Assembly: GCA_019326865.1 (NCBI GenBank)
Contig: GCA_019326865.1_4101.1
Strand: one strand, 5' to 3'
DNA length: 64,000 nucleotides
From: a phage
The position numbers were made by a program, and so were the translations under genes. The first letter of the stretch is position 1. Each line of letters starts with the position of its first letter. Of this stretch, positions 3,980 through 61,741 are shown one piece after another. The notes below the pieces were generated by a model. That model was not told where the DNA came from, ran no database searches, and saw only the letters and a list, made by a program, of their open reading frames with translations.

Positions 3980-3989
3980 TGGAGAGAAT

Positions 3990-4580: not shown

Positions 4581-4594
4581 AGGAATATATATAT

Positions 4595-7336
4595 ATGGCT
4601 TCTAGACGAATTATAGGAAACGCAGATATACTAGGGAATTTAAAAATTAATGGAAAGTATGCATTACGTTCCCTTAATGGTGTTCCTGCTGACTCTGCTG
4701 GTAAAATCACTTATCAATATTATGACAAAGCGGAAGTAAATCAGATGTTTGATATGCTTCCAGTTTCAAGGGTAGGTGATCAAGATTACCTACCAATGAG
4801 TATTAACGGAACTTTTGAAGGTGCTTCTTCCTTTTCATTTGCAAAAATAATGCAACCTTGTATCATTGAAAATGATGGTACTGGTGTAATTTTACGTGCA
4901 GGTACAAATGGAAGTTCTTATGGTTACTATTATACTTATATTAAAAATATAAGAGATATAGAAACACTAACTCAAGATAATATAATTACAACCAATACGA
5001 TGTATAGACCGTCTGTGCTACCAAGTACTGATTACATTTATGAATTTTATGGGTCAAATGCATATGAATTACTATTTTGGGAATCAACTGATAGAACATC
5101 ATATTACCTTACATTAACAAATGAAACATTGAATGAATCAGCACACAAGCATTGCAGAATTCCAAAAACAGCAATAACAAATAAACCAATATATGCACAC
5201 ATCGTAAATGATTCAGTTTATATATGGTGTATGGATTCAAGTGTATTGAGTAGTGTTCGCGGGTGTGCATTTATTATATACACAGTACCTTTAACTGCAT
5301 TTAATACTGGTTCAGTTTCTACCGTAACACAGATTGGTGGTTATTCAGGAAGAACTATAAGAGATGCAACATATACTGCATCTAATAATATTCGCGTTTA
5401 TGATAGCTATTCTATTTTAGGTTCAGGTGGTGATGCACTAATAGTATATGATAATGGTGTTTCCAGAATAGATTATTGGGAAAATAACGTATTTAATACC
5501 CAAGCAGTTCTTAGCCCAGATGGTACAAAAATAAGAGTTGCGATCTATCCAGGGTTTCGTGTCTTTACCAAAACAAAAACATCTAGTGTATATGCACTTG
5601 GTATTAGCTTTACATATGATATCAGTACTAAAACAATGACACTTGATGGTTCTGAACGTGGTCCAATCAGAGTATCAGCTAATACATCAACTGGTAGTAT
5701 AACAGTAAGAAACCCGTTTTCAATCAATATGGAAAACTTTACAGGGTTTTATGACGGTGCACTTGGCAACTATGGTTCAATCTGTCAAACTTCTGATGGT
5801 TTTGTTTTCACTACCAAAGCAAGATGGACATCCACACCAACATATGCAGTACAAACATACAAAGTTTCTGGTACACCTTATGATAGTTGGGTCGCTAAAA
5901 CACGTACTGCTAGTAATTTAAAACGTGTCGAAGTAATGCCAGTTTATGGCTCCCCTGTCGGTGAAAACTTAATAGGTGTTCGTTTCGTAGATAAACGTAA
6001 GATACTTGTTGCATGTTCTGGCACTGCTGATGGAATTTCTTATGGTTATGATAGTACAGTTTTTACTGAAATAGGTGAGAATCCGACTTATGTTTATAAA
6101 AACTTGGAACAAAATACCACAATGAATGGTTTTGCACCATCAAGTAATAGACACTATTTAAGTACTGATTACAAATATGCAGGTATGATAACATTGGTTG
6201 ATGCAAATGGAAATGTCAGCACTTATGGTTCTTCGTTAATAGAAGACATCGATAAACCAGCGTATGGAAAATTCGACCCAGTTACAATGGACTTCGACAG
6301 TAATAGATATGAAATTTCAGGAACAACATTATCAAGTATAGGTGATAATGCAATTGCTAAAGCTGGATTGTCTGGAATAACTGATCATAAAACTGTTTTT
6401 TATTATGTACCTGATACTACATATTCTAAATCGATTGCAGTCACTTCTGCATTAAACGGTACTACCAATGTGTGTTATATTATTTTTTCCGAAATATCAT
6501 GTAGTGCAGTTGGTACAAGTGGTACTATAATTTTACGTGGTATTAATGTTGATACAGCAAGATATACATCAATGACGAATACATACCAAATTTCACCAAA
6601 TGAAATGGTCAAACGTTGGGCTGGTATGACGGTTTCTAAGTTTAATGGTTTTAACTACTTAGGCGTGAACATTTTATATGGCATTGATACCCCAGGTTGG
6701 ACTCGTTATCCTAACATGATTGCTAAAGTGAAAAATGGTATTATTTCAAGTCAACGATATATGGAAACAACTTATATTTCAAACGCACAATTTGATATAG
6801 GTACAATTCCAGGGATTGGGTTTGGATATTACCAAATGAACAAAAACGATTATCAAACTAAATCAGTTTTTGCTGTATGTGGTACTACTGAAGCAGATAT
6901 GGATAAACTAATATCTGGTAATGAAACGATATCACAGTACTTAGTTGTTGCTTCACAGGATGTGGCACAAGGGTTTCACGTATACTTTTCACAAGAAGTA
7001 CCAGTTTTCTTGGGTGGAAAGTTTGCAAAGATACCACCGACTATGATAGACTTATCTACCATAAGTACTACACCAGAGAATTCAACATTCTACATATATG
7101 CGGTGATGGATAGAGATACATCCACAGCATCGTATCAGATATCACTACATCAATTATCAGAAACTATGACATCAACATACATTGGTAAGATAGTAACTAA
7201 TAATAATGGTATTGCATCAATCGAGTCTGAAAAAGTTTCCAGATTCTTGCTATACCGTCCAAGTACCCACAGTCGTGGATCTGCTATCCCAGCTAGTTCT
7301 GGGTTACCATCACAATCTGGCTCCCGTTGGAAATAA
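4595..7336 (+). CDS. tail fibre protein, paralog B
   Basis: start moved to second ATG (MASRR...), which carries the same AAAGGRATATATAT-ATG initiation region as the gene at 1280; N-terminal LPVSRVGDQDYLP module. Confidence 0.6.
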   Translation: MASRRIIGNADILGNLKINGKYALRSLNGVPADSAGKITYQYYDKAEVNQMFDMLPVSRVGDQDYLPMSINGTFEGASSFSFAKIMQPCIIENDGTGVILRAGTNGSSYGYYYTYIKNIRDIETLTQDNIITTNTMYRPSVLPSTDYIYEFYGSNAYELLFWESTDRTSYYLTLTNETLNESAHKHCRIPKTAITNKPIYAHIVNDSVYIWCMDSSVLSSVRGCAFIIYTVPLTAFNTGSVSTVTQIGGYSGRTIRDATYTASNNIRVYDSYSILGSGGDALIVYDNGVSRIDYWENNVFNTQAVLSPDGTKIRVAIYPGFRVFTKTKTSSVYALGISFTYDISTKTMTLDGSERGPIRVSANTSTGSITVRNPFSINMENFTGFYDGALGNYGSICQTSDGFVFTTKARWTSTPTYAVQTYKVSGTPYDSWVAKTRTASNLKRVEVMPVYGSPVGENLIGVRFVDKRKILVACSGTADGISYGYDSTVFTEIGENPTYVYKNLEQNTTMNGFAPSSNRHYLSTDYKYAGMITLVDANGNVSTYGSSLIEDIDKPAYGKFDPVTMDFDSNRYEISGTTLSSIGDNAIAKAGLSGITDHKTVFYYVPDTTYSKSIAVTSALNGTTNVCYIIFSEISCSAVGTSGTIILRGINVDTARYTSMTNTYQISPNEMVKRWAGMTVSKFNGFNYLGVNILYGIDTPGWTRYPNMIAKVKNGIISSQRYMETTYISNAQFDIGTIPGIGFGYYQMNKNDYQTKSVFAVCGTTEADMDKLISGNETISQYLVVASQDVAQGFHVYFSQEVPVFLGGKFAKIPPTMIDLSTISTTPENSTFYIYAVMDRDTSTASYQISLHQLSETMTSTYIGKIVTNNNGIASIESEKVSRFLLYRPSTHSRGSAIPASSGLPSQSGSRWK

Positions 7337-48615: not shown

Positions 48616-50886
48616 TTATCTAATTGTTACCAATGTTCTTCCGTCGAAACGTACATCAGGAGTTGAAGGTATACTGAACACTACGTTAGTGCCGTTAAAC
48701 GTCACGCTATCGACCTCAACACGAGTATAGACCCCAGGACTAACCTGTTCCTGTATCTCTGCTGTGACGATGTTTGAGGCTGTTACAGTAAGGGTGTAGT
48801 AATTACCACTTAATACCCAAGATGAAATGGTAAATGCATCGGTTCTTACTGAACCTGAACCAATTGGAACCCATTGACCTTGAACTTTTTGCATTGAAGT
48901 ACGCTCGGTATTGGAGTATGCAATCATACCATCAACACCGACAGAGTTATCAATAGTAGCTAGTACTGGTAATTGAATACCATATCTATTGAAACGTGTT
49001 CTAATAGTTCCATTATCATAGATACTTACATCAGCATAATCACCCATTGAAAGTTTCAAATCTGAATCAACTAATTGCATTGTACTTTGATTAGTAGGGC
49101 TTTCTAACGTAATTATTCCATTTGCCAATAAGCTTAAGTTTTTAAATTTATTCGAAACACCATTAAATGTCGTATTAGCATTGAAAGTACTCGTGCCATT
49201 AACTACTATTGTGTTTTCTGCGGCTGCACCTAATATAGTATTACTTTGAACAATCAAATTACCACTTGTAGTAATATTAGTAGCTGTAGTATCACCATTT
49301 AATTTTGTATTAGCATTGAAAGTACTAGTACTATTAACTACTAATGTGTTTGTAGCGTTGTCACCTAATATAGTATCACTTTGAACATTCAAATTACCAC
49401 TTGCAGTAATATTAGTTGCTGTAGTATCACCATTTAATCTACTTGTACCATCAACTACAATATTACTATTAAATTTTGTATTAGCTTTAAAAGTACTAGT
49501 ACTATTAACTACTAACGTGTTTGCTGCGGTGTCACCTAATATTGTATTGCTTTGAACATTCAAATTACCACTTGCAGTAATGTTACTAGCTGAAGTATCA
49601 CCAATTAATCTACTTGTACCATCAACTACGATATTACCATGAAAATCGCTTTCACCGTTTTTAAATTCAACTTGTACTGAATACATAGAACTAAATGAAA
49701 TTATATTACTACTTGCACTTATACCAACATTAGTATTAGTTGGATTATCGAAGTGTAATATTGGAGTTAATGCTGGTGTTGTTGTTGTTTGATAGAGTGT
49801 TAGTGATGAGTTGTTAATTCTCACACGTTCATTTCCAGCAGTACTAAATCCAATAGCATCATCAGCAGGATGAAAAATACCAGTATTAGTATCAGACCAT
49901 TTATCAGGATCATTTCCAGGATTACTTGTTGGGTCGAATGGCTTATTATTAAATGCAATCGCTGGGGCAGAAGCACTCCCATATATAACACCAAAACGCC
50001 CAGACCCTATTGTACCGTCATCGTACATTGAATCGCCTGTTCTACGTAAACATTCAATTACAACATTATCTATGGAAGTTTGAACTGTACCAGCATTAGT
50101 TCTGAATTGGCGATTATTTGCAATCATAATAGTGTTATCATATAACACAGAAGCTGCTGAAATACTTGTTCTAGATTGGCGAAGGCGTATGTTTTTATCT
50201 TCAGTAATAATAATCCAGTCACCATCAGATAGTGCTGTTTGATTCATTGGTACACCGGAAGCAAACGGCTTAGTTAAATCATCATCAGTTACCAAATTAA
50301 CAAGTCCACTATGTCCCTCACTAGGGATAGAAGTTGAAATAATTCTCGCAAAAGCGTATGTTACTAGCTTTTCACCCGATATATTTGGGTTAGAATCAAC
50401 ATAATATAAAATTTCAACCCAATTCCCTTGCCCAGTTGGGTTGGTTGGAGTAAATGTAACAGGGCTTGTTTTTGGTTTATTCGCTTCAAAATGTGCTTGG
50501 GCGGCATCCATAATACCACGCACAACATAATAATCACCACTAAGTGATGATGATGGTGCAGGTAGTGGGCTTTGGGCTAACGGTGGGTCAATATCATCTG
50601 GAATTGGATTATATGTACCAACAAACTGTAAACCGCTAGTTACTGAGTCTGGTAATTGAGATGTGAGAAGTTTACCATTTGCATCTAAGTTAGCGAAACG
50701 CCTATATGCCATTGAACCATCTTCAAAATCCAGAACGCCCTCAAACGATTTCCATTCTTTATTGTATCTAATCATCCCTGATCTTATTACATCAGCGGTT
50801 TCTTTTGATGGTGCTTTTGGTAATTCTAAAAAAGATTTACTATCAATAATTACACCACCATCACCTCTAATTCGATTTATACTCAT
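48616..50886 (-). CDS. tail fibre protein with internal tandem repeats
   Basis: 756 aa; repeated NANTKFNSNIVVDGTSRLNGDTTATNITASGNLNVQS-type units. Confidence 0.65.
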   Translation of the reverse strand: MSINRIRGDGGVIIDSKSFLELPKAPSKETADVIRSGMIRYNKEWKSFEGVLDFEDGSMAYRRFANLDANGKLLTSQLPDSVTSGLQFVGTYNPIPDDIDPPLAQSPLPAPSSSLSGDYYVVRGIMDAAQAHFEANKPKTSPVTFTPTNPTGQGNWVEILYYVDSNPNISGEKLVTYAFARIISTSIPSEGHSGLVNLVTDDDLTKPFASGVPMNQTALSDGDWIIITEDKNIRLRQSRTSISAASVLYDNTIMIANNRQFRTNAGTVQTSIDNVVIECLRRTGDSMYDDGTIGSGRFGVIYGSASAPAIAFNNKPFDPTSNPGNDPDKWSDTNTGIFHPADDAIGFSTAGNERVRINNSSLTLYQTTTTPALTPILHFDNPTNTNVGISASSNIISFSSMYSVQVEFKNGESDFHGNIVVDGTSRLIGDTSASNITASGNLNVQSNTILGDTAANTLVVNSTSTFKANTKFNSNIVVDGTSRLNGDTTATNITASGNLNVQSDTILGDNATNTLVVNSTSTFNANTKLNGDTTATNITTSGNLIVQSNTILGAAAENTIVVNGTSTFNANTTFNGVSNKFKNLSLLANGIITLESPTNQSTMQLVDSDLKLSMGDYADVSIYDNGTIRTRFNRYGIQLPVLATIDNSVGVDGMIAYSNTERTSMQKVQGQWVPIGSGSVRTDAFTISSWVLSGNYYTLTVTASNIVTAEIQEQVSPGVYTRVEVDSVTFNGTNVVFSIPSTPDVRFDGRTLVTIR

Positions 50887-50929
50887 TTAAATATTTCCTC
50901 AGAATAGATTATATATGATGTATTTATTT

Positions 50930-50965
50930 TAGATAAAAGAAAAGGCCAAGTATAAACTTGACCTT
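50930..50965 (-). terminator. intrinsic terminator (minus strand)
   Basis: imperfect 10-bp inverted repeat AAGGCCAAGT/ACTTGACCTT with A-run on + strand (U-run on minus transcript). Confidence 0.5.
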
Positions 50966-50970
50966 GAAAA

Positions 50971-51750
50971 TTATTTAGTACGTTCAGGTATATCAATATC
51001 TTCATATACCCAACTCGCAGCTTGTTGTGCTTTATAAATTGCGTTAGGGTCAGAATCATCAACTGCATCAATTGCTTCACATTGTTTATCACAATCAGAA
51101 AATAGTTTTTCAACCATTGCAAGTGATTCAGTATATAGTTGTGTCATTTCTTCCGCTGTTAGTTTTACTATAGCATCATCAAGAATAATAGTAACATTTT
51201 CAGCACCAGATACAACTTGTGTATAATAATTAAGAAGCATTTGGCGACCCGCAAGATCTGTATTATAACGATGTTCTTTGAATACATAACCAGCATTAAT
51301 TCGATTAGTACGTTCTGATAAAGTTCGTTCTTTCAAATCTTTTTTCACATCGGAAATTGGTACATCGACATAATTGTATGTTTTAAGTACAGTCAATGCT
51401 TTGTATTCACCAGTTGCATCTTCTAAAAATTCAACGACTGGTTGTTTTTCATCTTTTAATCTAATATATTCCAATGGTTGACCATTCTTGTTTATATTGC
51501 CTACATTTTTATACTCTAACCACCAAAAACCTTCTTCTTTTCTCACCTCATCATTTGGTTCCACTGGAGAACCATCATAACTGGAAATACCATACAAAGT
51601 TCTAATATCGCTATAAAGATAACGATAGGTCTGTGAATCATCTGGAATTGCACCAGGGCGTTCTTTAAGACCTTTAACACCGATTGGGTTTGAGATGATA
51701 CTACCCAATTCATAGTTTTCCTTTGAATTACCTTTCACATATGTGAACAT
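50971..51750 (-). CDS. hypothetical protein (tail fibre-associated?)
   Basis: 259 aa ORF between two fibre genes; GAGGTAG RBS. Confidence 0.6.
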   Translation of the reverse strand: MFTYVKGNSKENYELGSIISNPIGVKGLKERPGAIPDDSQTYRYLYSDIRTLYGISSYDGSPVEPNDEVRKEEGFWWLEYKNVGNINKNGQPLEYIRLKDEKQPVVEFLEDATGEYKALTVLKTYNYVDVPISDVKKDLKERTLSERTNRINAGYVFKEHRYNTDLAGRQMLLNYYTQVVSGAENVTIILDDAIVKLTAEEMTQLYTESLAMVEKLFSDCDKQCEAIDAVDDSDPNAIYKAQQAASWVYEDIDIPERTK

Positions 51751-51815
51751 ATAACTACCTCACTTGTTACGATGGTGTCACCCAAGTAAGGTGACACCTT
51801 TTATTTTAATTATTA

Positions 51816-54800
51816 TTAAGCAGTACGTTGAGCAATAAACATATCTGCTACTGAACTTACACCATCATAAATTACCTGATAGATAGTTACAGAGTTTGCA
51901 GTTTTGTTAAGTGTTCCATCAACTACAGCATATGTACCATCGGTAGTAAAGTTTCTATTACCAGTTGCATCTTGTTTAACATAAATGTATACTGACGATG
52001 CTTTACCACCACCAATTAGACCAGTAATAGGTGCTAGTGTTGTATCTTGATCAAGTGTGATAAAGTATACGTTGCTAGTCCCGTCAGGTGTCCAAGTACC
52101 AGATGGTGCAATAACAGAAGAAGTTACTTGATTTGGGATAACATCATATTTTTTGGTAGTTACTTTTGTCGTAGTGAAGTCTGCGTTGGTTGTAGATAAA
52201 TGTCCTGTTACAGTTACACCTTTGTCAAATACCGCATTTTCTTTGAAAGAAGATGTTGCATTAACAGTTAATGTATCAGAATCAGCATCACCTAACACAA
52301 CACTGCCATTTGCTGTCATTAAACCAGTAACAGTTAGCGTACCACCGATTGTTGCTTCACCAATTACAGATGCACTAGCAAGTGTAGCTGCACTAGATGT
52401 TGTAATAGTGGTAACAGTAGCGTCTTCAAGTGTGATGTTTGATGCTGTTAATTTACCATCAACCGTTAGGCTACCAGTAACATTTGCACCCGCTGACATG
52501 GTTACTGCTCCACCAAATGAACCTGTGGTAGTAACTTCAAGTGTATTACCTTTAAGTAATTTAGTTGCAGTTATATTTTCACCAGCAGTAATACTAGTAC
52601 CAGCAGCAACACCATTGGTTGCAGTTAGGGATTTAACGGATACATCAGAGTTTGATTGGTTAAGTGTAGCGTTTAGAGTGCCTGTTACAGTGAAGTCACC
52701 GTTGTTAACTACGTTACCGTTGATTGTTAAGTTATTATTTTTAGAACCAACATCACCGATGGTTGCAGATTTAGAAATCAATTCTGCACCAGATGTAATG
52801 TTACCTGCGGCACTAATGGTGTTAGCTGCATTAACTGCATAAGGTTCAATAGTTTGTCCACTAACATCGATATCAGCATTAATACCACCATCTACACGCA
52901 AAGAACCAGCAATGTAAGTGTTAGGGAAAATTTGAACAGTTTCTGTGTGTTCACCAACCTGTGTACCAATAATAACATTTGATCCAGTTTTTACTAAACC
53001 TTCAGATGTTATTGCACCCACAGTTGTTGTACCAGTAACGTCTAGTCTGCCACCAACTGTAGCGTTATTAGTTACTTTTAACGCAACATCTTCACCATTG
53101 ATAGTCATTGATGGTACAGATGCGTTTCCAGTAACATCTAGTGTTCCACCAATAGTTGCATTACCATCAGAATGTAAAGTTTTTGTAACAGAAAGACTGT
53201 TTGCAATTACATCCGCACCAGTCAAATCCAATGCACCTGGTGTTAATGTACCAGTAATGTTAACATTATTATCAAAGGTTGCTGCACCAGTAACATCTAG
53301 GGTAGAGCTAAATGTACCAGAAGTTGCAGAGATTGCACCAGATTCAAGTGAACCAACAGTGGTTTTTCCAGTTACACCTAGTGTACCGCCAACTGTTCCA
53401 TTTGTTGTAACTTCTAGTGTTCCAGTACTTAGATCTTTTGCTGTCACTTTGCCAGATGCGTTAATGGTTGTTGTTGTAACACCACCACTTAGAGTGCTTG
53501 CCCCAGTAACACTGAGTGTTTTTGCTGCACTAACGCTGTTTACAGTAAGATCAGCACCTGATAGGTCTAATCCACCTTCAGGAATAAAATTACCCTTAAC
53601 TGTTAGCTGTTGAACAGTACTGTCACCAGTGACATCTAGTGTAGAAGCAGTTAGACCACCATTCAGACTTGTTTCCCCAGTAACATCTAGTGTAGTTGTT
53701 ACAGTTGCACTGTTAAGAGTGGAGATACCGGAAATATTAGCACTTTGTGCAGTGATTGAGCCTTTATCAACTTGTACATCACCAGAAACAACTTTAATAC
53801 CACCAGCACTAACTGTTAGTTTTTCAGCAGTGTTCAAAGTACTTGAAATTGTTGTTGCACCAGTTAAGGTTGTAGTTCCAGCTACACTCATGTTTCCAGA
53901 GATAGATGGATTGCCTGTAATGTCACCAGTAGTGAGAACCAATTCAGTACCTACAGTAGTAGAACCAGTACTTTCTAATGTTACACCGACAATATTTGCA
54001 GATTTAAGGTCAATGGAGCCATCAACAGTCAAGTTGCCATGTACTGTTGCATCACCGAGTGAATTTAATGATTTCACAGAAACATCAGTTTTACTAAGGT
54101 CAATTACACCAGCAGTAAGTGTTCCAGATACTGCCAAATCACCAGTAATTGCTGTATTTTTCGTAATAGATACAGTTTCTGTTCCTGACGTAATTGAGCC
54201 AACAGTAAGTACACCACCAATGGTTGCATTGTTAGTTACAGTTAACGCTGTTTCTTCACCAGATAGTGTTAAAGAAATACCATTCATTTCACCAGTAATA
54301 TTTGCAGATGCCGCAGATATATCGCCAGCAACTACCGCATTTGTTGCGTTTAGAGTTGTTGTAGCAATTTCAGTACTTTTCACTTTAGGAAGTGCGTTGA
54401 TACCATCTTTACTATTAACTGTAATAATACCAGAACTTGTTAGAGATTTAACAGAAACATCTGCACCACTTAAGTTTACTGTTCCAGAAACAACTAGATC
54501 GCCACCAATATTAGCACCTTCTGTTGTAGTGATTGATTTTGCATTAACTTCAGTTTGGCTCAAATCAATTGTACCAGGTGATACAGTTCCAGAAACAGTA
54601 AGATTACCAGTAATGGTGGTATCATTAGAAATAGATACACCATCATCATTGCTAATTGTTGGGGTTTCAATAGTAACAGCTTTAACTTTACCTGAAGAAG
54701 TCATATCAGCAACAGTTGATGTACCAGTAACCTTTAGATTAGTAATATTTGCAGTAGTTGAACCAAGTGTAGTAATCGTACCATCAGTACTTTCTAGTTT

Positions 54801-57317
54801 AGGAAGAACACTGGCAATAGAAGATTCATTACTAACAATTGCACCAGTACTGGTTAGCGATTTTGCAGTTACATCAGCATTAGTAAGATCAACAGTTCCA
54901 TTAACGGTTAGATCTCCCCCGACTGTTGCACCAGCAGTAGTAGTAATTGAATTAGCATTAACATCTGCTTTAGTTAGATCGATTGAACCTGGAGTGATAG
55001 AGCCACTTACTGTTAGATCGCCAGTTACTTTTGTATTATTAGCAATTGTAATTCCATTTTCATTGGAAATATTAGGAGTCACCAATGAAGGTGTAGTAGT
55101 TTCGCCAGATACAGTTAATGTTGTACCAACTAATACACTTGAGCTTGTGTAAACACTTGATAGATTAGATGGTCCAGTTACGTGAAGTTCATCTGCATTA
55201 GCAGTTGTTACAGTTGCAGTTGTACTTTTAAGTACTGGTAGTACGTTTTCGGACACACTATCATTACTTTTAATAACACCAGAAGTAGTAAGTGATTTAA
55301 CATTAAGTTCGGCTTCTGATAAATCAAAAGAACCTTTAACTACTAGGTCACCACCAACTGTTGCACCAGCAGTAGTAGTAATTGAATTAGCATTAAGGTC
55401 GGCAGCACTTAAATCTAGTGAACCAACAGTTAAGCTACCAGTGATATCAACATTTTCTGTAAAGTTTGTATTACCACTAATAGTTGGGGCAGTTAAACTC
55501 GTTGCAGTGATATTAGTACCTTTGATTGTTTCACCACTTAATGTACCACTAGCAGTGATAGTTGGTGCGGTAACTTCGGTAGATGCACTAATTGTTGGTG
55601 CGGAAACCGAAGTTGTACCAGTAATAACACCAGAACTTACTGAACCAGCGGATAATGCACCAGAAAGAGTTGCAGTTGTTCCAGTAATATCACCAGTAAC
55701 AGTTAGTGCTCCACCAACAGTAGTATCACCTGTACTTTCCAAAGTTGCACCTTTGACATGTTCGGCTGCCACAACTGATTTTGGTGTTAAATCTTGTCCA
55801 CTAACGTCAACGGTTAAACCAGTTACTTTACCAGTGAAATCAACATCATTAAGAATTGCCTTACCACCAACTTGTAGGAATGGTGTACTTGGGTCTTGTG
55901 TTTCGTTACCTGTAATTGTTAGATAATCTAATTTGTTTAGACCATTACCAGTAATACCATATGTTGATAGTGATGCATTGCCAAATGTTGCAGTTTTAAG
56001 AACTTTCAATGTAGCTGGAGAAACCAACTCAGATTGAACTTCATTCGGTAAAATAACAGTTGGTCGTTGTTCTGGTGTAGTATATGCAAAACCGAGTTTA
56101 ACCGCTGGGTCTTGACTATTTTTACCTAAACTGATAGATTTGAAAGTTGCAGTACCGTTTAAACCAGTAATATTAGAACCTAGTGTAACACCACCCACCA
56201 ATGAAGTAGTTCCTGATACATTCAATGTGGTTGCATTAATATCATCCAACTGGAATTCGCCACCAAGAAGACCAGAAACATTAATGTTATTAAAATTAGC
56301 TGTGCCAGTACTTTCAATATTTGGGATAGTTGCAGTACCAGTAACTTCAAAATCAGCAACTTTAGTTTTACCTTTTTTTACTTCTAGAAGTGGTGTGTCT
56401 GGTGATTGAGTATCGTTACCAGAAACAGTTAGATAATCTAATTTGTTTAGACCATTACCAGTAATGCCATAGGTTGGCAATGATGCATTACCAAATGTTG
56501 CAGATGTCAAAACAGTCAATTTTGCTGGTGACATTAGTTCAGATTGAATTTCGTTTTGTAGAATTACAGTAGGACGCTTATCAGGAGCACTATAAGGGAA
56601 ACTTAGTCTAAAGGTTTGTGATTCAGAGTTAGATCCAATACGTATGTCTTTAAATGTAGCAGTGCTATTAATACCAGTTACATTAGCACCAAAAGTTACA
56701 GAACCTTTTTGGTTAGATGCACCAGTAACGTTCAATGTTTCAGCATTCAAATCAGAAAGATTAAACTCACCGCCCAGTGTACCATTAATGTTTACATCGT
56801 TGAATTCAGCAGTACCAGTACTAGTAATATCAGTTGCAGACACAGTTGTGATTTCTGCGGAATTAGCAGTAATTTTATCAAAAGCAGCAGTTGTGCCAAC
56901 ATCAGCAGTTAAGTTACCTTTAAGTGTTGTTACTCCATCAACTTCTAAGCTTTTTACTTTAGTTTCTTGTAGTGCTGTTGAACCCGCAGTTTGTGTCAAA
57001 TTACCACCAACTGACATAGTACCGTTGAATGTAGCATTTGCATTGATTGTTGCTGTATCAGAATCACCATCTGCACTACCGATAGTAGTGTTACCTTTAA
57101 CATCAAGACCACCACTTAATGTTGCTTTTCCAGCAACATCTAATGTGGATGTAATATTGGCAGTTTCGGTTTCAATGGCAGTAAAAGTTGCATTTGTGAA
57201 AGATATACTCCCATTTACAGTTAGGTTATTCTTGAATACAGCATTCCCTTTGACTAAAAGATCCTTACCAACCGTACCAGTACCAGTAATATCCAAGTCA
57301 GTTTTTATTGAGTACAT
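51816..57317 (-). CDS. giant tail fibre/adhesin-like protein (1833 aa)
   Basis: T/G/S/N-rich with pervasive short repeats; in fibre cluster. Confidence 0.7.
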   Translation of the reverse strand: MYSIKTDLDITGTGTVGKDLLVKGNAVFKNNLTVNGSISFTNATFTAIETETANITSTLDVAGKATLSGGLDVKGNTTIGSADGDSDTATINANATFNGTMSVGGNLTQTAGSTALQETKVKSLEVDGVTTLKGNLTADVGTTAAFDKITANSAEITTVSATDITSTGTAEFNDVNINGTLGGEFNLSDLNAETLNVTGASNQKGSVTFGANVTGINSTATFKDIRIGSNSESQTFRLSFPYSAPDKRPTVILQNEIQSELMSPAKLTVLTSATFGNASLPTYGITGNGLNKLDYLTVSGNDTQSPDTPLLEVKKGKTKVADFEVTGTATIPNIESTGTANFNNINVSGLLGGEFQLDDINATTLNVSGTTSLVGGVTLGSNITGLNGTATFKSISLGKNSQDPAVKLGFAYTTPEQRPTVILPNEVQSELVSPATLKVLKTATFGNASLSTYGITGNGLNKLDYLTITGNETQDPSTPFLQVGGKAILNDVDFTGKVTGLTVDVSGQDLTPKSVVAAEHVKGATLESTGDTTVGGALTVTGDITGTTATLSGALSAGSVSSGVITGTTSVSAPTISASTEVTAPTITASGTLSGETIKGTNITATSLTAPTISGNTNFTENVDITGSLTVGSLDLSAADLNANSITTTAGATVGGDLVVKGSFDLSEAELNVKSLTTSGVIKSNDSVSENVLPVLKSTTATVTTANADELHVTGPSNLSSVYTSSSVLVGTTLTVSGETTTPSLVTPNISNENGITIANNTKVTGDLTVSGSITPGSIDLTKADVNANSITTTAGATVGGDLTVNGTVDLTNADVTAKSLTSTGAIVSNESSIASVLPKLESTDGTITTLGSTTANITNLKVTGTSTVADMTSSGKVKAVTIETPTISNDDGVSISNDTTITGNLTVSGTVSPGTIDLSQTEVNAKSITTTEGANIGGDLVVSGTVNLSGADVSVKSLTSSGIITVNSKDGINALPKVKSTEIATTTLNATNAVVAGDISAASANITGEMNGISLTLSGEETALTVTNNATIGGVLTVGSITSGTETVSITKNTAITGDLAVSGTLTAGVIDLSKTDVSVKSLNSLGDATVHGNLTVDGSIDLKSANIVGVTLESTGSTTVGTELVLTTGDITGNPSISGNMSVAGTTTLTGATTISSTLNTAEKLTVSAGGIKVVSGDVQVDKGSITAQSANISGISTLNSATVTTTLDVTGETSLNGGLTASTLDVTGDSTVQQLTVKGNFIPEGGLDLSGADLTVNSVSAAKTLSVTGASTLSGGVTTTTINASGKVTAKDLSTGTLEVTTNGTVGGTLGVTGKTTVGSLESGAISATSGTFSSTLDVTGAATFDNNVNITGTLTPGALDLTGADVIANSLSVTKTLHSDGNATIGGTLDVTGNASVPSMTINGEDVALKVTNNATVGGRLDVTGTTTVGAITSEGLVKTGSNVIIGTQVGEHTETVQIFPNTYIAGSLRVDGGINADIDVSGQTIEPYAVNAANTISAAGNITSGAELISKSATIGDVGSKNNNLTINGNVVNNGDFTVTGTLNATLNQSNSDVSVKSLTATNGVAAGTSITAGENITATKLLKGNTLEVTTTGSFGGAVTMSAGANVTGSLTVDGKLTASNITLEDATVTTITTSSAATLASASVIGEATIGGTLTVTGLMTANGSVVLGDADSDTLTVNATSSFKENAVFDKGVTVTGHLSTTNADFTTTKVTTKKYDVIPNQVTSSVIAPSGTWTPDGTSNVYFITLDQDTTLAPITGLIGGGKASSVYIYVKQDATGNRNFTTDGTYAVVDGTLNKTANSVTIYQVIYDGVSSVADMFIAQRTA

Positions 57318-57394: not shown

Positions 57395-57436
57395 AAAAAA
57401 CTGGGCTTATTTAGAATAAGCCCAGTTTCATTTTTC
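57395..57436. terminator. bidirectional intrinsic terminator
   Basis: 11-bp stem CTGGGCTTATT/AATAAGCCCAG flanked by A-run and T-run. Confidence 0.75.
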
Positions 57437-58334
57437 ACTTACCAGAGATAACAATCTTCCCGCTGAATGTAACATCAGAAGTAAAGATCACATCACCAGC
57501 ATTGCTAATTTGTGTACCTGTTATCACCAATTCAAATGGTGATGACGAAACACTACCAGGTATCTTATTTGCATAAATCGAAACATACAAATTTTCTGGT
57601 GATTGTTTATGTTCAGATGCTGGAATTGTGATGGTGAACTCATCTTTATTAGAAATCCAATCAGCTTGGTTTACCAATTTACTATAAGGTGCTGTCATTG
57701 TTGTTGCTCCTATAATGTTTACTATAACATTTTCATAATCCGTAATTTTTCCAATTACATCGATTGTAATATCACCAGTACCGCTTACTACTACAGAGGT
57801 TTGAAATACGGAATCCAATGTTATACTACCAGGAGGATCACCCTGTAGTTGTACCATGATATCAGGCCCACGCCCATGTACAGATGCTGGAAGGGTGTAT
57901 GTGTAATGGTCGGTAGTATCTGAAACTAATGTAAATGAAGATACTGGTATAGTTTCAGTTGTTACATATGGACTATCAGTTTCATGTGAACTACCTTTGA
58001 ATGATTTCCAAATACCAAGATCTTTAATATAAATTTGAAGAACATTAGTTTCATCAACTAAAAAATACACATCACCATCTAACCCAATAGTTTCATCCGG
58101 TGCACTGGTTCCACGCAAAATACCAGAACTCCCACCACCACTATATGCGTTTAGATATCCTAACGTAACCAGGTGTGTGTTAGCGGTCGGTTCACCTGCT
58201 GAAATTGGAAGAAGTTTTGTTCCTGAGTAGTTTTGTATTTGCACAACACTACCATTTGTGGTAATCTGTGCACCATTCTTCCCAAGAATGAAGGACTTCT
58301 TCATGGTTCCTTCTAAATTAGAAAAAACTGCCAT
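57435..58334 (-). CDS. tailspike/tail fibre protein sharing N-terminal module with ORF 58351-60492
   Basis: N-terminus MAVFSNLEGTMKKSFILGKNGAQ resembles MAVFSNFEGTMKPKMILGKNGAS. Confidence 0.6.
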   Translation of the reverse strand: MAVFSNLEGTMKKSFILGKNGAQITTNGSVVQIQNYSGTKLLPISAGEPTANTHLVTLGYLNAYSGGGSSGILRGTSAPDETIGLDGDVYFLVDETNVLQIYIKDLGIWKSFKGSSHETDSPYVTTETIPVSSFTLVSDTTDHYTYTLPASVHGRGPDIMVQLQGDPPGSITLDSVFQTSVVVSGTGDITIDVIGKITDYENVIVNIIGATTMTAPYSKLVNQADWISNKDEFTITIPASEHKQSPENLYVSIYANKIPGSVSSSPFELVITGTQISNAGDVIFTSDVTFSGKIVISGK

Positions 58335-58350
58335 TTTAATTTAATCTCCT

Positions 58351-60492
58351 TTATGGTAGGGTTATGTACGTTACTGGTTGGGCGGCTTTTAATGATGCAC
58401 CAGCGGCAGTTGCTGTTATGATGGGATCTGCAATATCAATTCTATATACGTTATTAACAACATATACTGCACGAGTTATATACGTTTTCAAATCATCACC
58501 ATTTTCTCCAGCACCAGATATGATGATCTCAGTTCCCGCCGCTTTTGCATATTGGTTATCACCCCATGACACACCCAATGCTTCTATGTACGTTTGTCCT
58601 ACTACCGTTTGTCTAATTGTGTCATATTTTCCAAAAAATGAACCACCCACTGTTACAATATATTTTCCACCTGATTTTTTATGTATAATCGTTCCTTCTG
58701 GGAAGTATCTTCCACCAGGGAAAGTATCATATGGAATATAATATTGTTCAACTACAGGTATTAGTACTGGGCCACGATGACCAGTACCGTCAATAGCAGT
58801 TGTTACTTTAAAATTATTAGATGATTGGTCGATTCTATCTACATACATTTTAGAAAAACTATATTTTGAAACATTACAATCATCTTGAACAACACAGTTA
58901 GTCCAATTAGTATAAGTATATTTAGAGCGAGTATACATTCCCCCACCCTCACCTTCAGTGGAAAGGTGTTGTCCTATTACATCTAATTCTTTTGTTCTGA
59001 TATCACTAAACTTAGATGAAGATGGTAGACCACGCCAAAGAATTTTAGAACAAGTGATATTACTTAATTCTGTACTATTCAGCCAATTATCAGAACCAGA
59101 AGTATAAACGAATACGGAAGACTCTGGTATATAGAGATTGGAAATTTTAAAGTTTCTAGGTGGTCCAGCAAATCGACCAGCAGTTACCCCCCAGTTAATA
59201 GATACCATACGGTTTGTGATTGTAGGATCATTAAGTAAATGTCCGGTTAAACCATCAATTACAAACTCTTTTGAGCCATAAGTTATCACACCAGCAGTTG
59301 TTAATCCTGTACCAACAGAAATTAAAGATGATGGGTACACCTCATTGTCAAGTATTTTGAAATCCATCCCCAATTCGACATGGATGCATTGTCTAACATT
59401 ATAAAGTCTATTATTCTTAATAACAAAGTTTCTAACATATTGAGTATCAGGGGCATCCAAATCATAAGGACCAGAACCAGCTACACCGATACCAATACCC
59501 CAGTTTGAAAGCGGGATTGGTGCATCAGAGCCATCAACATTTTCAATTATATTACCTTCGATCACAAAACCATCAGGATAATGTGAGTTAATAACGTTCA
59601 ATTCAATTGCATCCCCGTAGATATCATGAATGTGGTTATATGAATAACGACCAACTTTCATTTTCTCACCAGTACCCTGTTGGAGAACGCCATATTTGCA
59701 TTTAGTCATTTCATTAAAGCAAAAATCAATTGTACCTGGTTGAGTCATACCTTGCATCAAAAACGCAGCAGTACTGGTAATGTTTATAAATTTATTAAAA
59801 TAAAATTTACCATCCCCACCAAAGAATTTCAAATAACATCCAGTAAGTGTGGTGAATTGAATTTGTGAATTAATAACGGATATCATAGTACCACCATTAC
59901 CAGTAATAGTGCCACCAAACCAAGTTACATCTTCCAAATATACTGCTTTTTTGATACGATAATTACCACCTGCTTGAATTTGTATTTTATTTTCTTTGGC
60001 ATAAGTTGCACACAAATTTACAGCTTCAGTGTCATCGGTTTCCCCATCTCCTTTCGCACCAAATTCTTCTGGTGTTATATAGAACTGTGCTTGTTGAACT
60101 GTGCCACCAGTAATAAGGCCAATGAAATCACCACCATTTTTACTTGATAGTACTTTTTTATTAATGTATAGTGATTTAATCCATGTGCCATTTGTTTTTA
60201 CGAAAATATCAACAATACCATCTTCATCAATTTGAAAATAAGTGTTATTGTTTTTTCCAATATCGCCAGACGGTGGTTGAACGCCAAATAAGGCATTTGG
60301 ATTATCTTCAAGGTATCTAACATTAACTGCTGAATCTTGGTCTGATGGTGTTCCTATCTTTAGTGGTAGGAACTTTTCACCGAGATAATCTTTTATCGAT
60401 ACGGAATCATTGACGAAATTTATCGAAGCACCATTTTTACCCAATATCATTTTTGGTTTCATGGTTCCTTCAAAATTAGAAAATACTGCCAT
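58351..60492 (-). CDS. tailspike with pectate-lyase-type beta-helix domain (putative depolymerase)
   Basis: FGAKGDGETDDTEAVNLCATYA is the hallmark start of pectate-lyase-superfamily beta-helix domains. Confidence 0.65.
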   Translation of the reverse strand: MAVFSNFEGTMKPKMILGKNGASINFVNDSVSIKDYLGEKFLPLKIGTPSDQDSAVNVRYLEDNPNALFGVQPPSGDIGKNNNTYFQIDEDGIVDIFVKTNGTWIKSLYINKKVLSSKNGGDFIGLITGGTVQQAQFYITPEEFGAKGDGETDDTEAVNLCATYAKENKIQIQAGGNYRIKKAVYLEDVTWFGGTITGNGGTMISVINSQIQFTTLTGCYLKFFGGDGKFYFNKFINITSTAAFLMQGMTQPGTIDFCFNEMTKCKYGVLQQGTGEKMKVGRYSYNHIHDIYGDAIELNVINSHYPDGFVIEGNIIENVDGSDAPIPLSNWGIGIGVAGSGPYDLDAPDTQYVRNFVIKNNRLYNVRQCIHVELGMDFKILDNEVYPSSLISVGTGLTTAGVITYGSKEFVIDGLTGHLLNDPTITNRMVSINWGVTAGRFAGPPRNFKISNLYIPESSVFVYTSGSDNWLNSTELSNITCSKILWRGLPSSSKFSDIRTKELDVIGQHLSTEGEGGGMYTRSKYTYTNWTNCVVQDDCNVSKYSFSKMYVDRIDQSSNNFKVTTAIDGTGHRGPVLIPVVEQYYIPYDTFPGGRYFPEGTIIHKKSGGKYIVTVGGSFFGKYDTIRQTVVGQTYIEALGVSWGDNQYAKAAGTEIIISGAGENGDDLKTYITRAVYVVNNVYRIDIADPIITATAAGASLKAAQPVTYITLP

Positions 60493-60504
60493 TGTGACAC
60501 CCCC

Positions 60505-61632
60505 TTAAATATTATCTTGAATAGGTTGGACCGGAGCTTGCCACGAAAGAGTACAAATAATTTCCATTTTACCATAAGGACTGTTATTTACTGAATCATT
60601 GAATACACATGAAATAATTTCATCTACATCTGAAACTTCATGATTTGTTTCATTAACGATAAAACGCATCTGGTGATTAATATCAAAGTAGGATGTTGGT
60701 GCAATGACTGTACCACCAATATTTTCGTTGGCTTCACCACCAAAACGAACAAACATATCGGTCACAGGAAGGGAGTAAGGTTGAAGAATATTTACATCAA
60801 TATTTGAAACCACATAACCCGCCGGACAAGTTCCTATAACTAATAGTGCGTTTGTCCATGAACGGTCAATAATATTTCTTATAGAAATTGTATCTTTACC
60901 TGGTGCACCCGGTTCACCTTGCTTACCTTGAATACCTTGTGGACCTTCTTTACCACGGAATAAAATACCACTACTCCATTCTTTTGATGGTGGGGTGGTA
61001 GTTGTTACTTCATCCACATAATAAAGCTTACCATCAGTGTTGTTATAGAAACAATAATCAATTGGGAGGTTTTCAATACTTGGAAATTGATCACCACTAC
61101 CATCAATATGAAAACGACCACGTGGACCTTGCTCACCACGGAAAGGAATACCATCACTCCATGTAGCTGTTACTTTTTGATAAAAATATAGTTTACCATC
61201 TTGTGTATTGTAAAATGTATAGTTATCAAAAAGACCAGAACTTGGAAAAGTAGTCCCTGCACTATCGATATGAAAAGGCTTACCAGCTTCACCAGTATCA
61301 CCTTTACCAAATTCTACACTAATCCATGTACTGGTTTGTTCTTGTGCATCATTTGATTTAAAATACAAAGTACTTGTGTTATTTGCCAAACTAAGGTAGC
61401 ACCAACCAAGTTGTTCACCAACTTTAAATTTGTCAGATGGTACTTCAAAACCAATCTCATTTGGATAAAAGTTCTTACCATTCTCACCATTCTGTCCGAC
61501 CACAAGACCCAAATCTTGAATTGTATTATCTGTATAGGTTACAATTAAATGACCAGCAGCATTAATAACTAGACTTTTGATGCCGGAGTTATTACATGAA
61601 CCACTGGACCCATTGTTAAATGTAATTGTCAT
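60505..61632 (-). CDS. collagen-like repeat-containing tail fibre protein
   Basis: G-X-Y runs: GEQGPRGRF, GKEGPQGIQGKQGEPGAPGKD. Confidence 0.65.
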   Translation of the reverse strand: MTITFNNGSSGSCNNSGIKSLVINAAGHLIVTYTDNTIQDLGLVVGQNGENGKNFYPNEIGFEVPSDKFKVGEQLGWCYLSLANNTSTLYFKSNDAQEQTSTWISVEFGKGDTGEAGKPFHIDSAGTTFPSSGLFDNYTFYNTQDGKLYFYQKVTATWSDGIPFRGEQGPRGRFHIDGSGDQFPSIENLPIDYCFYNNTDGKLYYVDEVTTTTPPSKEWSSGILFRGKEGPQGIQGKQGEPGAPGKDTISIRNIIDRSWTNALLVIGTCPAGYVVSNIDVNILQPYSLPVTDMFVRFGGEANENIGGTVIAPTSYFDINHQMRFIVNETNHEVSDVDEIISCVFNDSVNNSPYGKMEIICTLSWQAPVQPIQDNI

Positions 61633-61741
61633 ATTATTTCCCTTTTATGAGTTAATGTCATATACCAATATTTATCAGTACAAAATACATTTCGCCGCCA
61701 TTAATAAATAAATGAAAGTTCACTACTAAAAGGGCTTAACA

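What the first reader, a model, noticed from the sequence alone, without database searches (positions are those of the whole stretch)
57435..61632. Tailspike pair with common N-terminal anchor, one with a pectate-lyase-type depolymerase domain, plus a collagen-like fibre
Two adjacent minus-strand genes begin MAVFSN[LF]EGTMK, suggesting a shared attachment module with different distal domains. The 713-aa one carries the FGAKGDGETDDT beta-helix hallmark typical of polysaccharide depolymerases. The next gene has Gly-X-Y collagen-like runs. This points to capsule or O-antigen recognition.
Basis: partly seen in the sequence, partly recalled or inferred. Interest (0 to 1): 0.45.

Follow-up and report, generated by a model that had tools for sequence, protein, structure and literature searches.

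The report
Jumbo-phage colanic-acid tailspike gene cassette
Three adjacent tail genes of a 121Q/PBECO4-type giant E. coli phage: one is an enzyme that digests the host's colanic-acid slime, its neighbour begins with the same likely virion-docking module, and the third is a short collagen-like fibre; all three are real but already annotated, so the finding is ordinary.

Summary
The window is an Asteriusvirus jumbo coliphage; this locus is 96% identical to phage ph0011. Three tightly packed minus-strand genes (375, 713 and 299 aa) sit between a promoter-like site and a strong terminator hairpin.

- **Shared N-terminus.** The 713- and 299-aa proteins share about 110 N-terminal residues (40% identity, E=7e-21) and nothing beyond.
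- **The 713-aa protein.** Residues ~96-712 are 57% identical to the phi92 gp150 colanidase tailspike (PDB 6E0V, E=5e-236). The whole protein is 94% identical to PBECO4's colanic-acid-degrading protein. The substrate is therefore colanic acid, not K capsule or O antigen, and the closest characterised enzyme is a hydrolase, not a lyase.
- **The 299-aa protein.** It is the ancestral carrier of the N-module, conserved in the RaK2-like jumbo phages examined, and its CBB orthologue is a virion protein. Its C-terminal part models as two Ig-like sandwiches with no enzyme domain.
- **The colanidase gene is an insertion.** Only Asteriusvirus has it, placed between the other two genes.
- **The first ~66 residues.** They also head metagenomic proteins with beta-helix, BNR or S74-chaperone distal domains, which supports a docking role.
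- **The 375-aa protein.** It has four short Gly-X-Y runs with conserved glycines and a jelly-roll C-terminal domain.

Verdict: already known, low interest.

The parts
60505..61632 (-). 375-aa tail protein (121Q gp574 / RaK2 ORF062w / GAP32_222 / CBB_228 orthologue). It has an N-terminal beta region, three small beta units separated by short Gly-X-Y runs, and a C-terminal jelly-roll domain.
   Evidence: ORF. phrog_13565 'tail protein', E=5.7e-218. 68 homologues. The CBB_228 orthologue is in virions (13 peptides, 44% coverage), as is phAPEC6 gp253 (65.6% coverage). AF2 model: mean pLDDT 78.8, pTM 0.37.
60892..60954 (-). Longest collagen-like run, (G-X-Y)7, residues 227-247 of the 375-aa protein. 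Shorter (G-X-Y)3 runs lie at 61471-61497, 61276-61302 and 61111-61137.
   Evidence: Glycines are invariant or nearly invariant in 45 homologues. AF2 pLDDT is below 50 at three of the four runs (segments 109-114, 166-173, 227-233), which would fit segments that fold only as trimers.
60541..60891 (-). C-terminal jelly-roll beta-sandwich domain of the 375-aa protein (residues 248-364).
   Evidence: pLDDT above 90 for most of the domain. Foldseek matches the trimeric cement/decoration proteins of phages KHP40 and KHP30, Pam1 and GP4, with probability 1.0 and target TM 0.49-0.64.
58351..60492 (-). 713-aa colanidase tailspike (121Q gp573 / PBECO4 AGC35227 orthologue).
   Evidence: phrog_6117 'colanic acid degradation', E=2.7e-259. 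94% identical to the PBECO4 protein. Precomputed Pfam PF27800 WcaM. TIGR04004 WcaM E=1e-25 over residues 262-458, far below the equivalog cut-off.
60163..60492 (-). N-terminal module of the 713-aa protein (residues 1-110). Residues 1-~66 are the anchor sub-module; residues ~67-110 are one copy of a ~42-aa repeat found in fibre and collagen-containing proteins.
58357..60192 (-). Colanic-acid hydrolase domain (residues 101-712), homologous to phi92 gp150 (PDB 6E0V).
   Evidence: E=5.4e-236 against 6E0V. 349/617 (57%) identical to a Justusliebigvirus colanidase tailspike from residue 96 on. Family-invariant D290, D294, E297 (window 59602-59625), R367, Q368, H371 and E373 (59374-59376) are all present.
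60028..60063 (-). FGAKGDGETDDT motif (residues 144-155) at the start of the enzyme domain.
   Evidence: It lies within the sub-threshold PF12708 match at residues 143-251. It is conserved only in the phi92-like relative, not in the other five colanidases aligned.
57435..58334 (-). 299-aa virion structural protein (121Q gp572 / GAP32_221 / CBB_227 orthologue): the N-module plus two Ig-like beta-sandwich domains.
   Evidence: phrog_10468, E=8.6e-88. 72 homologues, nearly all full-length at 284-309 aa, including GAP32, Eneladusvirus, EJP2 and Yersinia phage records. CBB_227 is in virions (5 peptides, 32% coverage). AF2 mean pLDDT 82.8.
57990..58334 (-). N-terminal module of the 299-aa protein (residues 1-115).
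   Evidence: Residues 1-11 and 65-70 have pLDDT below 50 in the monomer model.
57438..57977 (-). C-terminal part of the 299-aa protein (residues 120-299): two beta-sandwich (Ig-like) domains, no enzyme signature.
57397..57429 (-). Intrinsic-terminator-like hairpin (15-pair stem followed by a T-rich tail), 6 nt after the stop codon of the 299-aa gene.
61633..61661 (-). Promoter-like site (10 of 12 consensus positions) directly upstream of the 375-aa gene, in the divergent intergenic region.
   Evidence: This is a consensus match only.
48616..57317 (-). Context: the downstream fibre genes. They encode 1833 aa (long tail fibre, 51816-57317), 259 aa (DUF4376, 50971-51750) and 756 aa (phrog_14293, 48616-50886).
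   Evidence: The CBB orthologues CBB_226, CBB_225 and CBB_224 are in virions.

Best explanation
This is the tail-accessory cassette of an Asteriusvirus (121Q/PBECO4-like) jumbo myophage. It is probably one late transcription unit, in the order 375-aa, 713-aa, 299-aa gene.

The 713-aa protein is a colanidase tailspike. Its first ~110 residues are a module specific to RaK2-like phages that most likely fixes the presumably trimeric protein to the virion. The other ~610 residues are a WcaM/phi92-gp150-type glycoside hydrolase that cuts colanic acid, the slime E. coli over-produces under envelope stress or as a phage-resistance response. Cutting it lets the phage reach the cell surface.

The 299-aa protein carries the older copy of the same module, followed by two Ig-like domains. 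It is a non-enzymatic virion protein found in nearly all the relatives examined; in RaK2 only the module survives.

The colanidase gene arose when a copy of the module was joined to an enzyme domain that circulates among unrelated coliphages. The new gene was inserted between the 375-aa and 299-aa genes.

The 375-aa protein is probably a trimer. Short collagen-like triple helices would alternate with small beta domains and end in a jelly-roll head.

Shown here: the homologies, the domain boundaries, the gene order across genera, and the conserved residues. Taken from the literature: enzyme activity in orthologues, and virion presence of the 299- and 375-aa orthologues. Inferred: the docking role of the module, the trimeric state, virion attachment of the colanidase, and co-transcription.
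For: - **Identity of the phage.** This locus is 96% identical in DNA to ph0011 and 87% to 121Q/PBECO4.
- **Shared module.** E=7e-21 over 109 residues.
- **Enzyme domain.** PDB 6E0V E=5.4e-236; 57% identity to a phi92-like colanidase tailspike whose own ~190-residue N-terminus is unrelated; 94% identity to PBECO4's colanic-acid-degrading protein.
- **Activity in relatives.** phi92 gp150 hydrolyses the beta-1,4 Glc-Fuc bond of colanic acid (Xu 2025, as cited in PMC13450770). PBECO4 gp547 is linked to Kim et al. [quoted passage not shown]
- **Conserved residues.** D290, D294, E297, E373, H371, R367 and W331 are invariant in seven colanidases, including NST1 CAE. All seven have different N-termini. 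The core also matches WcaM.
- **Gene order.** GAP32 and CBB have 375-like, 299-like, then long fibre, with no enzyme gene between them. The module occurs twice per genome only in Asteriusvirus records and once in the other RaK2-like genera.
- **Virion presence.** CBB_227 and CBB_228 and phAPEC6 gp253.
- **Anchor elsewhere.** The anchor sub-module sits at residue 1 of proteins of 113-1366 aa that carry Peptidase_S74, Beta_helix, BNR or CBM5_12 domains. Two such tailspikes lie on one distant jumbo-phage contig.
- **Operon signals.** Gaps of 12 and 16 nt, an AGGAG before the 299-aa gene, and a terminator hairpin straight after it.
Against: - No direct evidence places the 713-aa protein in virions. 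The phAPEC6 virion proteome lists gp253 and gp256 but neither gene product in between. The 121Q record marks gp572 and gp574 as structural but not gp573.
- The beta-helix fold of the enzyme domain was not modelled here. It rests on 57% identity to a solved structure and a sub-threshold PF12708 match.
- ph0011 gave no plaque halo.
- Kim et al. 2015 could not be read in the library. Its content is from my recollection plus its title and the way it is cited.
Confidence: 0.85

Rival explanations
1. The 713-aa colanidase is not a virion-attached tailspike. It is a soluble enzyme released at lysis that strips slime from neighbouring cells, and its N-module serves oligomerisation or folding rather than docking.
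For: The orthologue is not listed in the phAPEC6 virion proteome. 121Q annotates the two neighbours as structural but not gp573. By my recollection of Kim et al. 2015, purified PBECO4 enzyme works in trans.
Against: The same module heads the CBB_227 virion protein. The catalytic-domain homologue in phi92 is described as a tailspike. The gene sits inside a block of tail and fibre genes. The 299-aa orthologue is also missing from the phAPEC6 list although it is found in CBB, so that list is incomplete.
Confidence: 0.12
2. The shared N-module is a trimerisation and assembly unit rather than the contact with the virion. Attachment would be made by another protein, for example the 375-aa protein acting as an adaptor.
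Against: Residues 1-66, with the near-invariant first 11 residues, always sit at the extreme N-terminus of otherwise unrelated proteins. That is the usual signature of a particle-binding domain. In the distant contig, no gene of comparable size lies next to either anchor-bearing gene. The two roles are not mutually exclusive.
Confidence: 0.1
3. The enzyme targets a K capsule or an O antigen, rather than colanic acid.
For: Beta-helix tailspikes commonly change specificity with few substitutions. Activity was not assayed for this exact sequence.
Against: 94% identity to the PBECO4 protein, 57% to phi92 gp150, and 31-32% identity to NST1 CAE with the family-invariant residues conserved. The core is homologous to WcaM, encoded in the host's colanic-acid gene cluster.
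Confidence: 0.04

Closest known systems
PBECO4 ORF547 / 121Q gp573 colanic-acid-degrading enzyme (Asteriusvirus)
   Same: Orthologue: same length (713 aa), 94% identical over the full length including the N-module, and in the same position between the same neighbours.
   Different: 43 substitutions, 15 of them in the first 110 residues. Nothing suggests a different function.
Phage phi92 gp150 colanidase tailspike (PDB 6E0V/6E0W) and other Justusliebigvirus colanidases
   Same: The catalytic and C-terminal part is 57% identical over 617 residues with only 4 gap positions. Its activity on colanic acid has been shown.
   Different: The phi92-type protein has an unrelated ~190-residue N-terminus for a different baseplate. 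Here that is replaced by the ~100-residue RaK2-type module.
Phage NST1 colanic-acid-degrading enzyme and the colanidases of Vequintavirinae, Ackermannviridae, Phapecoctavirus and GAP32_128
   Same: The same enzyme family, 26-37% identical, with a shared set of invariant acidic, His, Arg and Trp residues.
   Different: Each has its own N-terminal region. GAP32_128 lies at another locus and lacks the N-module.
E. coli WcaM (colanic acid cluster protein; TIGR04004 / PF27800)
   Same: The core is homologous (residues 262-458, E=1e-25).
   Different: The score of 90 bits is far below the 795-bit equivalog cut-off. WcaM is a bacterial protein without a phage anchor or the long C-terminal extension.
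Branched tailspike systems built on conserved N-terminal assembly domains (CBA120 TSP1-4; RaK2 gp526-gp534)
   Same: The same design principle: receptor-binding proteins of one phage share N-terminal domains and differ in distal domains, which are exchanged horizontally (PMC10253068).
   Different: No sequence or convincing fold similarity to T4 gp10-like XD or CBA120 D1 domains. The RaK2 study does not mention this locus (gp060-062). Only two carriers exist here, and one is not enzymatic.
Collagen-like trimeric surface fibres with a globular jelly-roll head (for example Bacillus BclA; from my own knowledge)
   Same: Gly-X-Y repeats followed by a C-terminal jelly-roll domain, the fold of trimeric phage cement proteins.
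   Different: The runs are only 3-7 triplets, are interrupted by ~45-55-residue beta units, and fall below the Pfam Collagen threshold. Trimer formation is not shown.

Membership tests
Phage colanidase (colanic-acid-degrading tailspike; phi92 gp150 / NST1 CAE / PBECO4 ORF547 family, phrog_6117) | Full-length homology of the catalytic domain to characterised members | tested here: met
   6E0V E=5.4e-236. 57% identity to a phi92-like colanidase. 94% to the PBECO4 protein. phrog_6117 E=2.7e-259.
Phage colanidase (colanic-acid-degrading tailspike; phi92 gp150 / NST1 CAE / PBECO4 ORF547 family, phrog_6117) | Conservation of the family-invariant polar residues (candidate active site) | tested here: met
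   D290, D294, E297, R367, Q368, H371, E373 and W331 are invariant in all 7 aligned proteins. Which of them are catalytic has not been established in anything I could read.
Phage colanidase (colanic-acid-degrading tailspike; phi92 gp150 / NST1 CAE / PBECO4 ORF547 family, phrog_6117) | Hydrolysis of colanic acid | not testable with these tools
   Reported for phi92 gp150. By my recollection of Kim et al. 2015, also for PBECO4 ORF547; that paper's title is cited.
Phage colanidase (colanic-acid-degrading tailspike; phi92 gp150 / NST1 CAE / PBECO4 ORF547 family, phrog_6117) | Presence on the virion as a tailspike | not testable with these tools
   There is only indirect support (the module is shared with virion protein CBB_227). 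The orthologue is absent from the phAPEC6 proteome list.
Pectate-lyase-like right-handed beta-helix (Pfam PF12708 Pect-lyase_RHGA_epim) | Match above the Pfam gathering score | tested here: not met
   19.8 bits against a cut-off of 27, E=7e-4, residues 143-251. No model of this protein was built, so the fold is inferred from the solved homologue only.
Polysaccharide lyase (beta-elimination mechanism) | Lyase rather than hydrolase chemistry | not testable with these tools
   The closest characterised homologue is described as a hydrolase of a glycosidic bond, which argues against lyase chemistry.
WcaM (TIGR04004 / NF007517 equivalog) | Score above the equivalog cut-off | tested here: not met
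   90 bits against 795-808 bits. Only residues 262-458 align. It is homologous to WcaM, not an equivalog of it.
Modular tailspike / receptor-binding proteins with a conserved N-terminal particle-binding domain | The same N-terminal domain on proteins with different distal domains | tested here: met
   Within the genome. Across metagenomes, with S74 chaperone, Beta_helix, BNR and CBM5_12 distal domains.
Modular tailspike / receptor-binding proteins with a conserved N-terminal particle-binding domain | Physical binding of the N-domain to the baseplate or to another fibre | not testable with these tools
   No solved homologue. Residues 1-11 are invariant yet disordered in the monomer model, which fits an interface but does not prove one.
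T4 gp10-like XD / CBA120 D1 branching domains | Fold similarity to XD or D1 domains | tested here: not met
Collagen triple-helix repeat proteins (Pfam PF01391) | Uninterrupted (G-X-Y)n above the family threshold | tested here: not met
   17.3 bits against a cut-off of 27.2, E=0.0042. The longest run is 7 triplets.
Collagen triple-helix repeat proteins (Pfam PF01391) | Glycine conserved at every third position, beyond chance | tested here: met
   Four runs against 0.37 expected (P about 2e-4). The glycines are invariant or nearly so in 45 homologues while X and Y vary.

The most novel reading that the evidence does not exclude
The ~110-residue N-module may be more than a handle. It could be an obligatory plug for a conserved site on all RaK2-like virions, one that must stay filled whatever is attached to it.

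Three observations fit this. RaK2 and several metagenomic phages keep 'anchor-only' proteins of 112-117 aa. JP4 and an independent E. coli-labelled record keep a 201-aa form in which residues 152-659 (nearly the whole enzyme domain) are removed precisely in frame. Asteriusvirus keeps two paralogous carriers.

The two paralogues would then either share or compete for the same sites. That would give particles with a mixed, and possibly adjustable, complement of colanidase and Ig-like spikes, with the neighbouring 375-aa collagen-like trimer as the hub.
Probability: 0.2. Interest if true: 0.45.

Novelty: already known. Interest (0 to 1): 0.2.

Why it matters
Colanic-acid over-production is a common route to broad phage resistance in E. 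coli. A phage-borne colanidase lets the phage, and other phages in a cocktail, get through that slime, and the phi92 enzyme is already used to make colanic-acid oligosaccharides. For this window the practical result is a correct annotation: a colanidase with a RaK2-type N-terminal module, not a capsule or O-antigen depolymerase. There is also a useful warning. The paper on the closest relative, ph0011, stated that the phage has no depolymerase because no halo was seen. The modest new point is that the N-module is a portable unit shared across RaK2-like jumbo phages. That gives a defined junction, at about residue 96-110, for swapping distal domains when engineering these phages.

Tried and rejected
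1. **Is the 375-aa protein built from the same ~42-aa repeat as the second half of the N-module?** Both show a Y-x-(D/N)...G-x-(L/I)-Y...W pattern by eye. It is not supported. hhalign of the two family alignments gave probability 0.3% and E=0.18. A profile built from 603 repeat copies gave E=0.11 for the 375-aa protein. Single-sequence and profile searches gave nothing.

2. **A solved structure for the N-module or the 375-aa protein by sequence profile.** None was found.

4. **Is RaK2 ORF060w the missing C-terminus of the RaK2 anchor-only protein?** No. It is the orthologue of the window's 756-aa protein (phrog_14293), with no similarity to the 299-aa protein.

5. **Word-indexed protein search with the N-module alignment.** It returned only 11 mostly short proteins and missed the known full-length carriers. 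The exhaustive representative search was needed.

6. **Kim et al. 2015 (PMC4292498).** It is not held in the library.

7. **Papers on Sharanji, JP4, fEgEco12 and EJP2.** They contain nothing on the function of this locus.

8. **A model of the 713-aa protein.** None was made. The two structure jobs went to the two proteins that have no solved homologue.

Full report
**What is at the coordinates.** The three minus-strand ORFs exist exactly as described: 60505-61632 (375 aa), 58351-60492 (713 aa) and 57435-58334 (299 aa). They are separated by 12 and 16 nt, with an AGGAG ahead of the 299-aa gene. Directly upstream of the first gene is a promoter-like site (61661-61633). Six nucleotides after the last stop codon is a 15-pair hairpin with a T-rich tail (57429-57397). 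I read this as one transcription unit. That is an inference from spacing and consensus matches, not from expression data. A second block follows on the same strand: an 1833-aa long tail fibre, a 259-aa DUF4376 protein and a 756-aa protein.

**Where the window comes from.** The locus is 96% identical in DNA to Escherichia phage ph0011, 95.5% to UE-S1 and about 87% to 121Q, PBECO4, phAPEC6 and other members of the genus Asteriusvirus. These are ~350-kb jumbo myophages of the RaK2-like group. In 121Q the genes are gp574 (tail protein), gp573 (colanic acid degradation) and gp572 (virion structural protein), followed by gp571 (long tail fibre), gp570 and gp569. Identical proteins occur on a 342-kb metagenome scaffold and on a 348.5-kb contig of an NCBI assembly (GCA_024875585.1).

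**The shared N-terminus is real and not chance.** The 299- and 713-aa proteins align over residues 1-109 with 44 identities (40%, E=7e-21). Nothing beyond that is significant. No third copy exists in the window.
- Translated searches of phage genomes find the module twice per genome only in Asteriusvirus records. They find it once in RaK2, K64-1, GAP32, CBB, Eneladusvirus, Munch, EJP2 and Xanthomonas jumbo phages.
- In an alignment of 19 divergent copies (25-40% identical to the 713-aa copy), the first eleven residues MA[VI]FSN[LF][ED]GTM are nearly invariant.
- These same residues are disordered in the AlphaFold monomer model. That fits a peptide that orders only against a partner, but does not prove it.

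**Which copy is ancestral.** The 299-aa form has full-length homologues of 284-309 aa in many RaK2-like lineages. In GAP32 and CBB the order is 375-like, 299-like, long fibre, with no enzyme gene between them. So the 713-aa gene is an Asteriusvirus-specific insertion. RaK2 itself keeps only the module, as a 115-aa protein (ORF061w), followed by the orthologue of the window's 756-aa protein. At 40% identity, the duplication of the module is old.

**The module has two parts.** An exhaustive profile search of 1.84 billion representative proteins found 362 matches at E<=0.001.
- *Positions 1-~66.* These match only at the extreme N-terminus of proteins of 113 to 1366 aa. Their distal parts carry a Peptidase_S74 intramolecular chaperone, a right-handed beta-helix, BNR/sialidase-like propellers or CBM5/12. 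Two of these (780 aa with S74; 705 aa with Beta_helix) lie on one 120-kb contig of a distant jumbo phage. They share their first ~175 residues at 41% identity (63% over the first 65) and nothing else. This is the pattern expected of a particle-binding domain that is reused with interchangeable receptor-binding domains.
- *Positions ~67-110.* This is one copy of a ~42-residue repeat (consensus ...LSGTGAPASSLGNDGDFYLDTDTTNTVDIYVKSNGAWV...). It occurs up to 14 times in tandem in large proteins that often also contain true collagen repeats, and one of them has an LPXTG anchor.

**The 713-aa protein is a colanidase.**
- Residues 101-712 match PDB 6E0V/6E0W, 'Bacteriophage Phi92 gp150', at E=5.4e-236.
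- Against a full-length Justusliebigvirus 'colanidase tailspike' (804 aa), identity is 57% over 617 residues starting at residue 96. The first ~190 residues of that protein are unrelated to the N-module.
- phi92 gp150 is reported to hydrolyse the beta-1,4 bond between glucose and fucose in colanic acid (Xu et al. 2025, as cited in PMC13450770). It is called a tailspike colanidase in reviews.
- The window protein is 94% identical (670/713) to PBECO4's 'putative colanic acid degrading protein' AGC35227. PMC10059673 links PBECO4 gp547 to Kim et al. [quoted passage not shown]
- I could not open that paper. From memory, it showed activity of purified ORF547 and rescue of T7 infection of mucoid mutants.
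- Across seven colanidases from six phage groups, including the original NST1 enzyme, the residues D290, D294, E297, W331, R367, Q368, H371 and E373 are invariant, while every N-terminus differs.
- The core (residues 262-458) is also homologous to E. coli WcaM, at E=1e-25 but far below the equivalog threshold, and a precomputed PF27800 WcaM hit is on record. This explains the 'colanic acid biosynthesis protein' label in some genomes.
It is conserved only in the phi92-like relative, so it is a fold-cap motif rather than a family signature.

**The 375-aa protein.** The four Gly-X-Y runs (3, 3, 3 and 7 triplets) exceed chance, and their glycines are conserved across 45 homologues while the X and Y positions vary.
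- In the monomer model, three of the four runs coincide with low-confidence segments (pLDDT below 50) and separate better-modelled small beta units.
- Residues 248-364 form a confident jelly-roll that resembles trimeric phage cement and decoration proteins (Foldseek probability 1.0, target TM 0.49-0.64).
- Orthologues are well represented in virions: CBB_228 at 44% coverage and phAPEC6 gp253 at 65.6%. RaK2 gp062 was not detected.
- The most likely form is a short trimeric 'beads-and-triple-helix' fibre with a globular head. Trimer formation is inferred.
- Whether it is the hub that receives the N-modules is an open idea. The only support is gene adjacency in four genera, and in the distant contig no gene of comparable size lies next to the anchor-bearing genes.

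**How it most likely works.**
1. Stress-induced or mutational over-production of colanic acid shields E. coli from phage adsorption (established knowledge of the Rcs/lon system).
2. The colanidase, held on the tail by its N-module, would cut the polymer and let the particle reach its cell-surface receptor.
3. The receptor itself is not known for this genus. One cited suggestion is flagella, and LPS is the receptor for the more distant EJP2.

The weakest link is virion attachment of the enzyme. It is absent from the phAPEC6 proteome list. That list also lacks the 299-aa orthologue, which is detected in CBB, so the list is incomplete.

**The halo test.** The ph0011 paper reports tiny clear plaques without halos and concludes that the genome encodes no depolymerase. 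Yet the ph0011 enzyme domain is 99.5% identical to the one here. Colanic acid is poorly made at 37 °C on rich medium, and jumbo phages diffuse badly (my own knowledge). The lack of a halo on a standard lawn therefore does not refute the enzyme.

**Verdict.** The genes are orthologues of annotated genes, and an orthologue of the enzyme has been characterised experimentally, so this is already known. None of the papers I read here describes the two-part N-module, the anchor-only and enzyme-deleted variants, or the insertion history. These are modest additions.

Noticed in passing
window 1280-7336 (+); L014 and L016: Three paralogous genes of 899, 196 and 920 aa (phrog_3573 / phrog_26864, function unknown) lie next to an NrdG-like gene. 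The block is hypervariable within Asteriusvirus: only ph0011 (97.5%) and A4 (91%) cover it, and the other records listed cover 21% or less. In a distant jumbo-phage contig (42% aa identity) the syntenic trio (902, 199 and 919 aa) is flanked by two tailspikes that start with the same MAIFS.L.GTM anchor as the proteins studied here. This suggests the trio is linked to fibres or host range.
   Followed up: partly
L008 3701-4306 (phage JP4); also protein P0149: JP4 carries a 201-aa version of the colanidase gene in which residues 152-659 are removed exactly in frame (junction within the bases GAAA). The N-module, the linker and the last 54 residues remain. A 201-aa protein from a separate E. coli-labelled NCBI record (P0149, 85% identical to the N-module) appears to be the same form.
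   Followed up: partly
L002 9001-9348 (RaK2 ORF061w); proteins P0142, P0145, P0150: 'Anchor-only' proteins of 112-117 aa consist of just the N-module. In RaK2 the C-terminal Ig-like domains and the long-fibre gene are absent from this locus. The 2023 study of the RaK2 adsorption complex does not mention this locus (gp060-062).
   Followed up: partly
Literature on ph0011 (PMC9692438): The paper on the closest relative states that the genome encodes no depolymerase and that plaques lack halos. The GenBank record of the same phage annotates a colanic acid-degrading protein whose enzyme domain is 99.5% identical to the one here.
   Followed up: yes
residues ~67-110 of both N-modules (window 60163-60294 and 58005-58136); proteins P0152-P0295: A ~42-residue repeat (G-x-x-x-P-x-x-x-x-G-x-x-G-D-x-Y-x-x-x-D...Y-x-K-x-x-x-x-W) is present in hundreds of metagenomic proteins, in up to 14 tandem copies. 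It is often interleaved with true collagen repeats, and in one case the protein has an LPXTG anchor. No model in the local Pfam copy matched it in the seven multi-copy proteins tested.
   Followed up: partly
window 48616-50886 (-): The 756-aa distal protein (phrog_14293) is about 100 residues longer than 121Q gp569 (654 aa) and than the RaK2 orthologue (510 aa). It has a weak bactofilin-like match at residues 412-497, which hints at a beta-helical segment.
   Followed up: no
L007 2683-4704 (GAP32_128): GAP32 also has a colanidase-family gene (about 27% identical). It lies at an unrelated locus among small hypothetical genes and lacks the N-module, so it was acquired independently.
   Followed up: no
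L014, L016 and L018 (precomputed Pfam column): Two Pfam families on record are newer than the local Pfam copy. PF27800 WcaM hits the 713-aa protein. PF27114 Phage_tail_beta hits the two distant anchor-bearing tailspikes but neither window protein. I could not determine what PF27114 covers.
   Followed up: no
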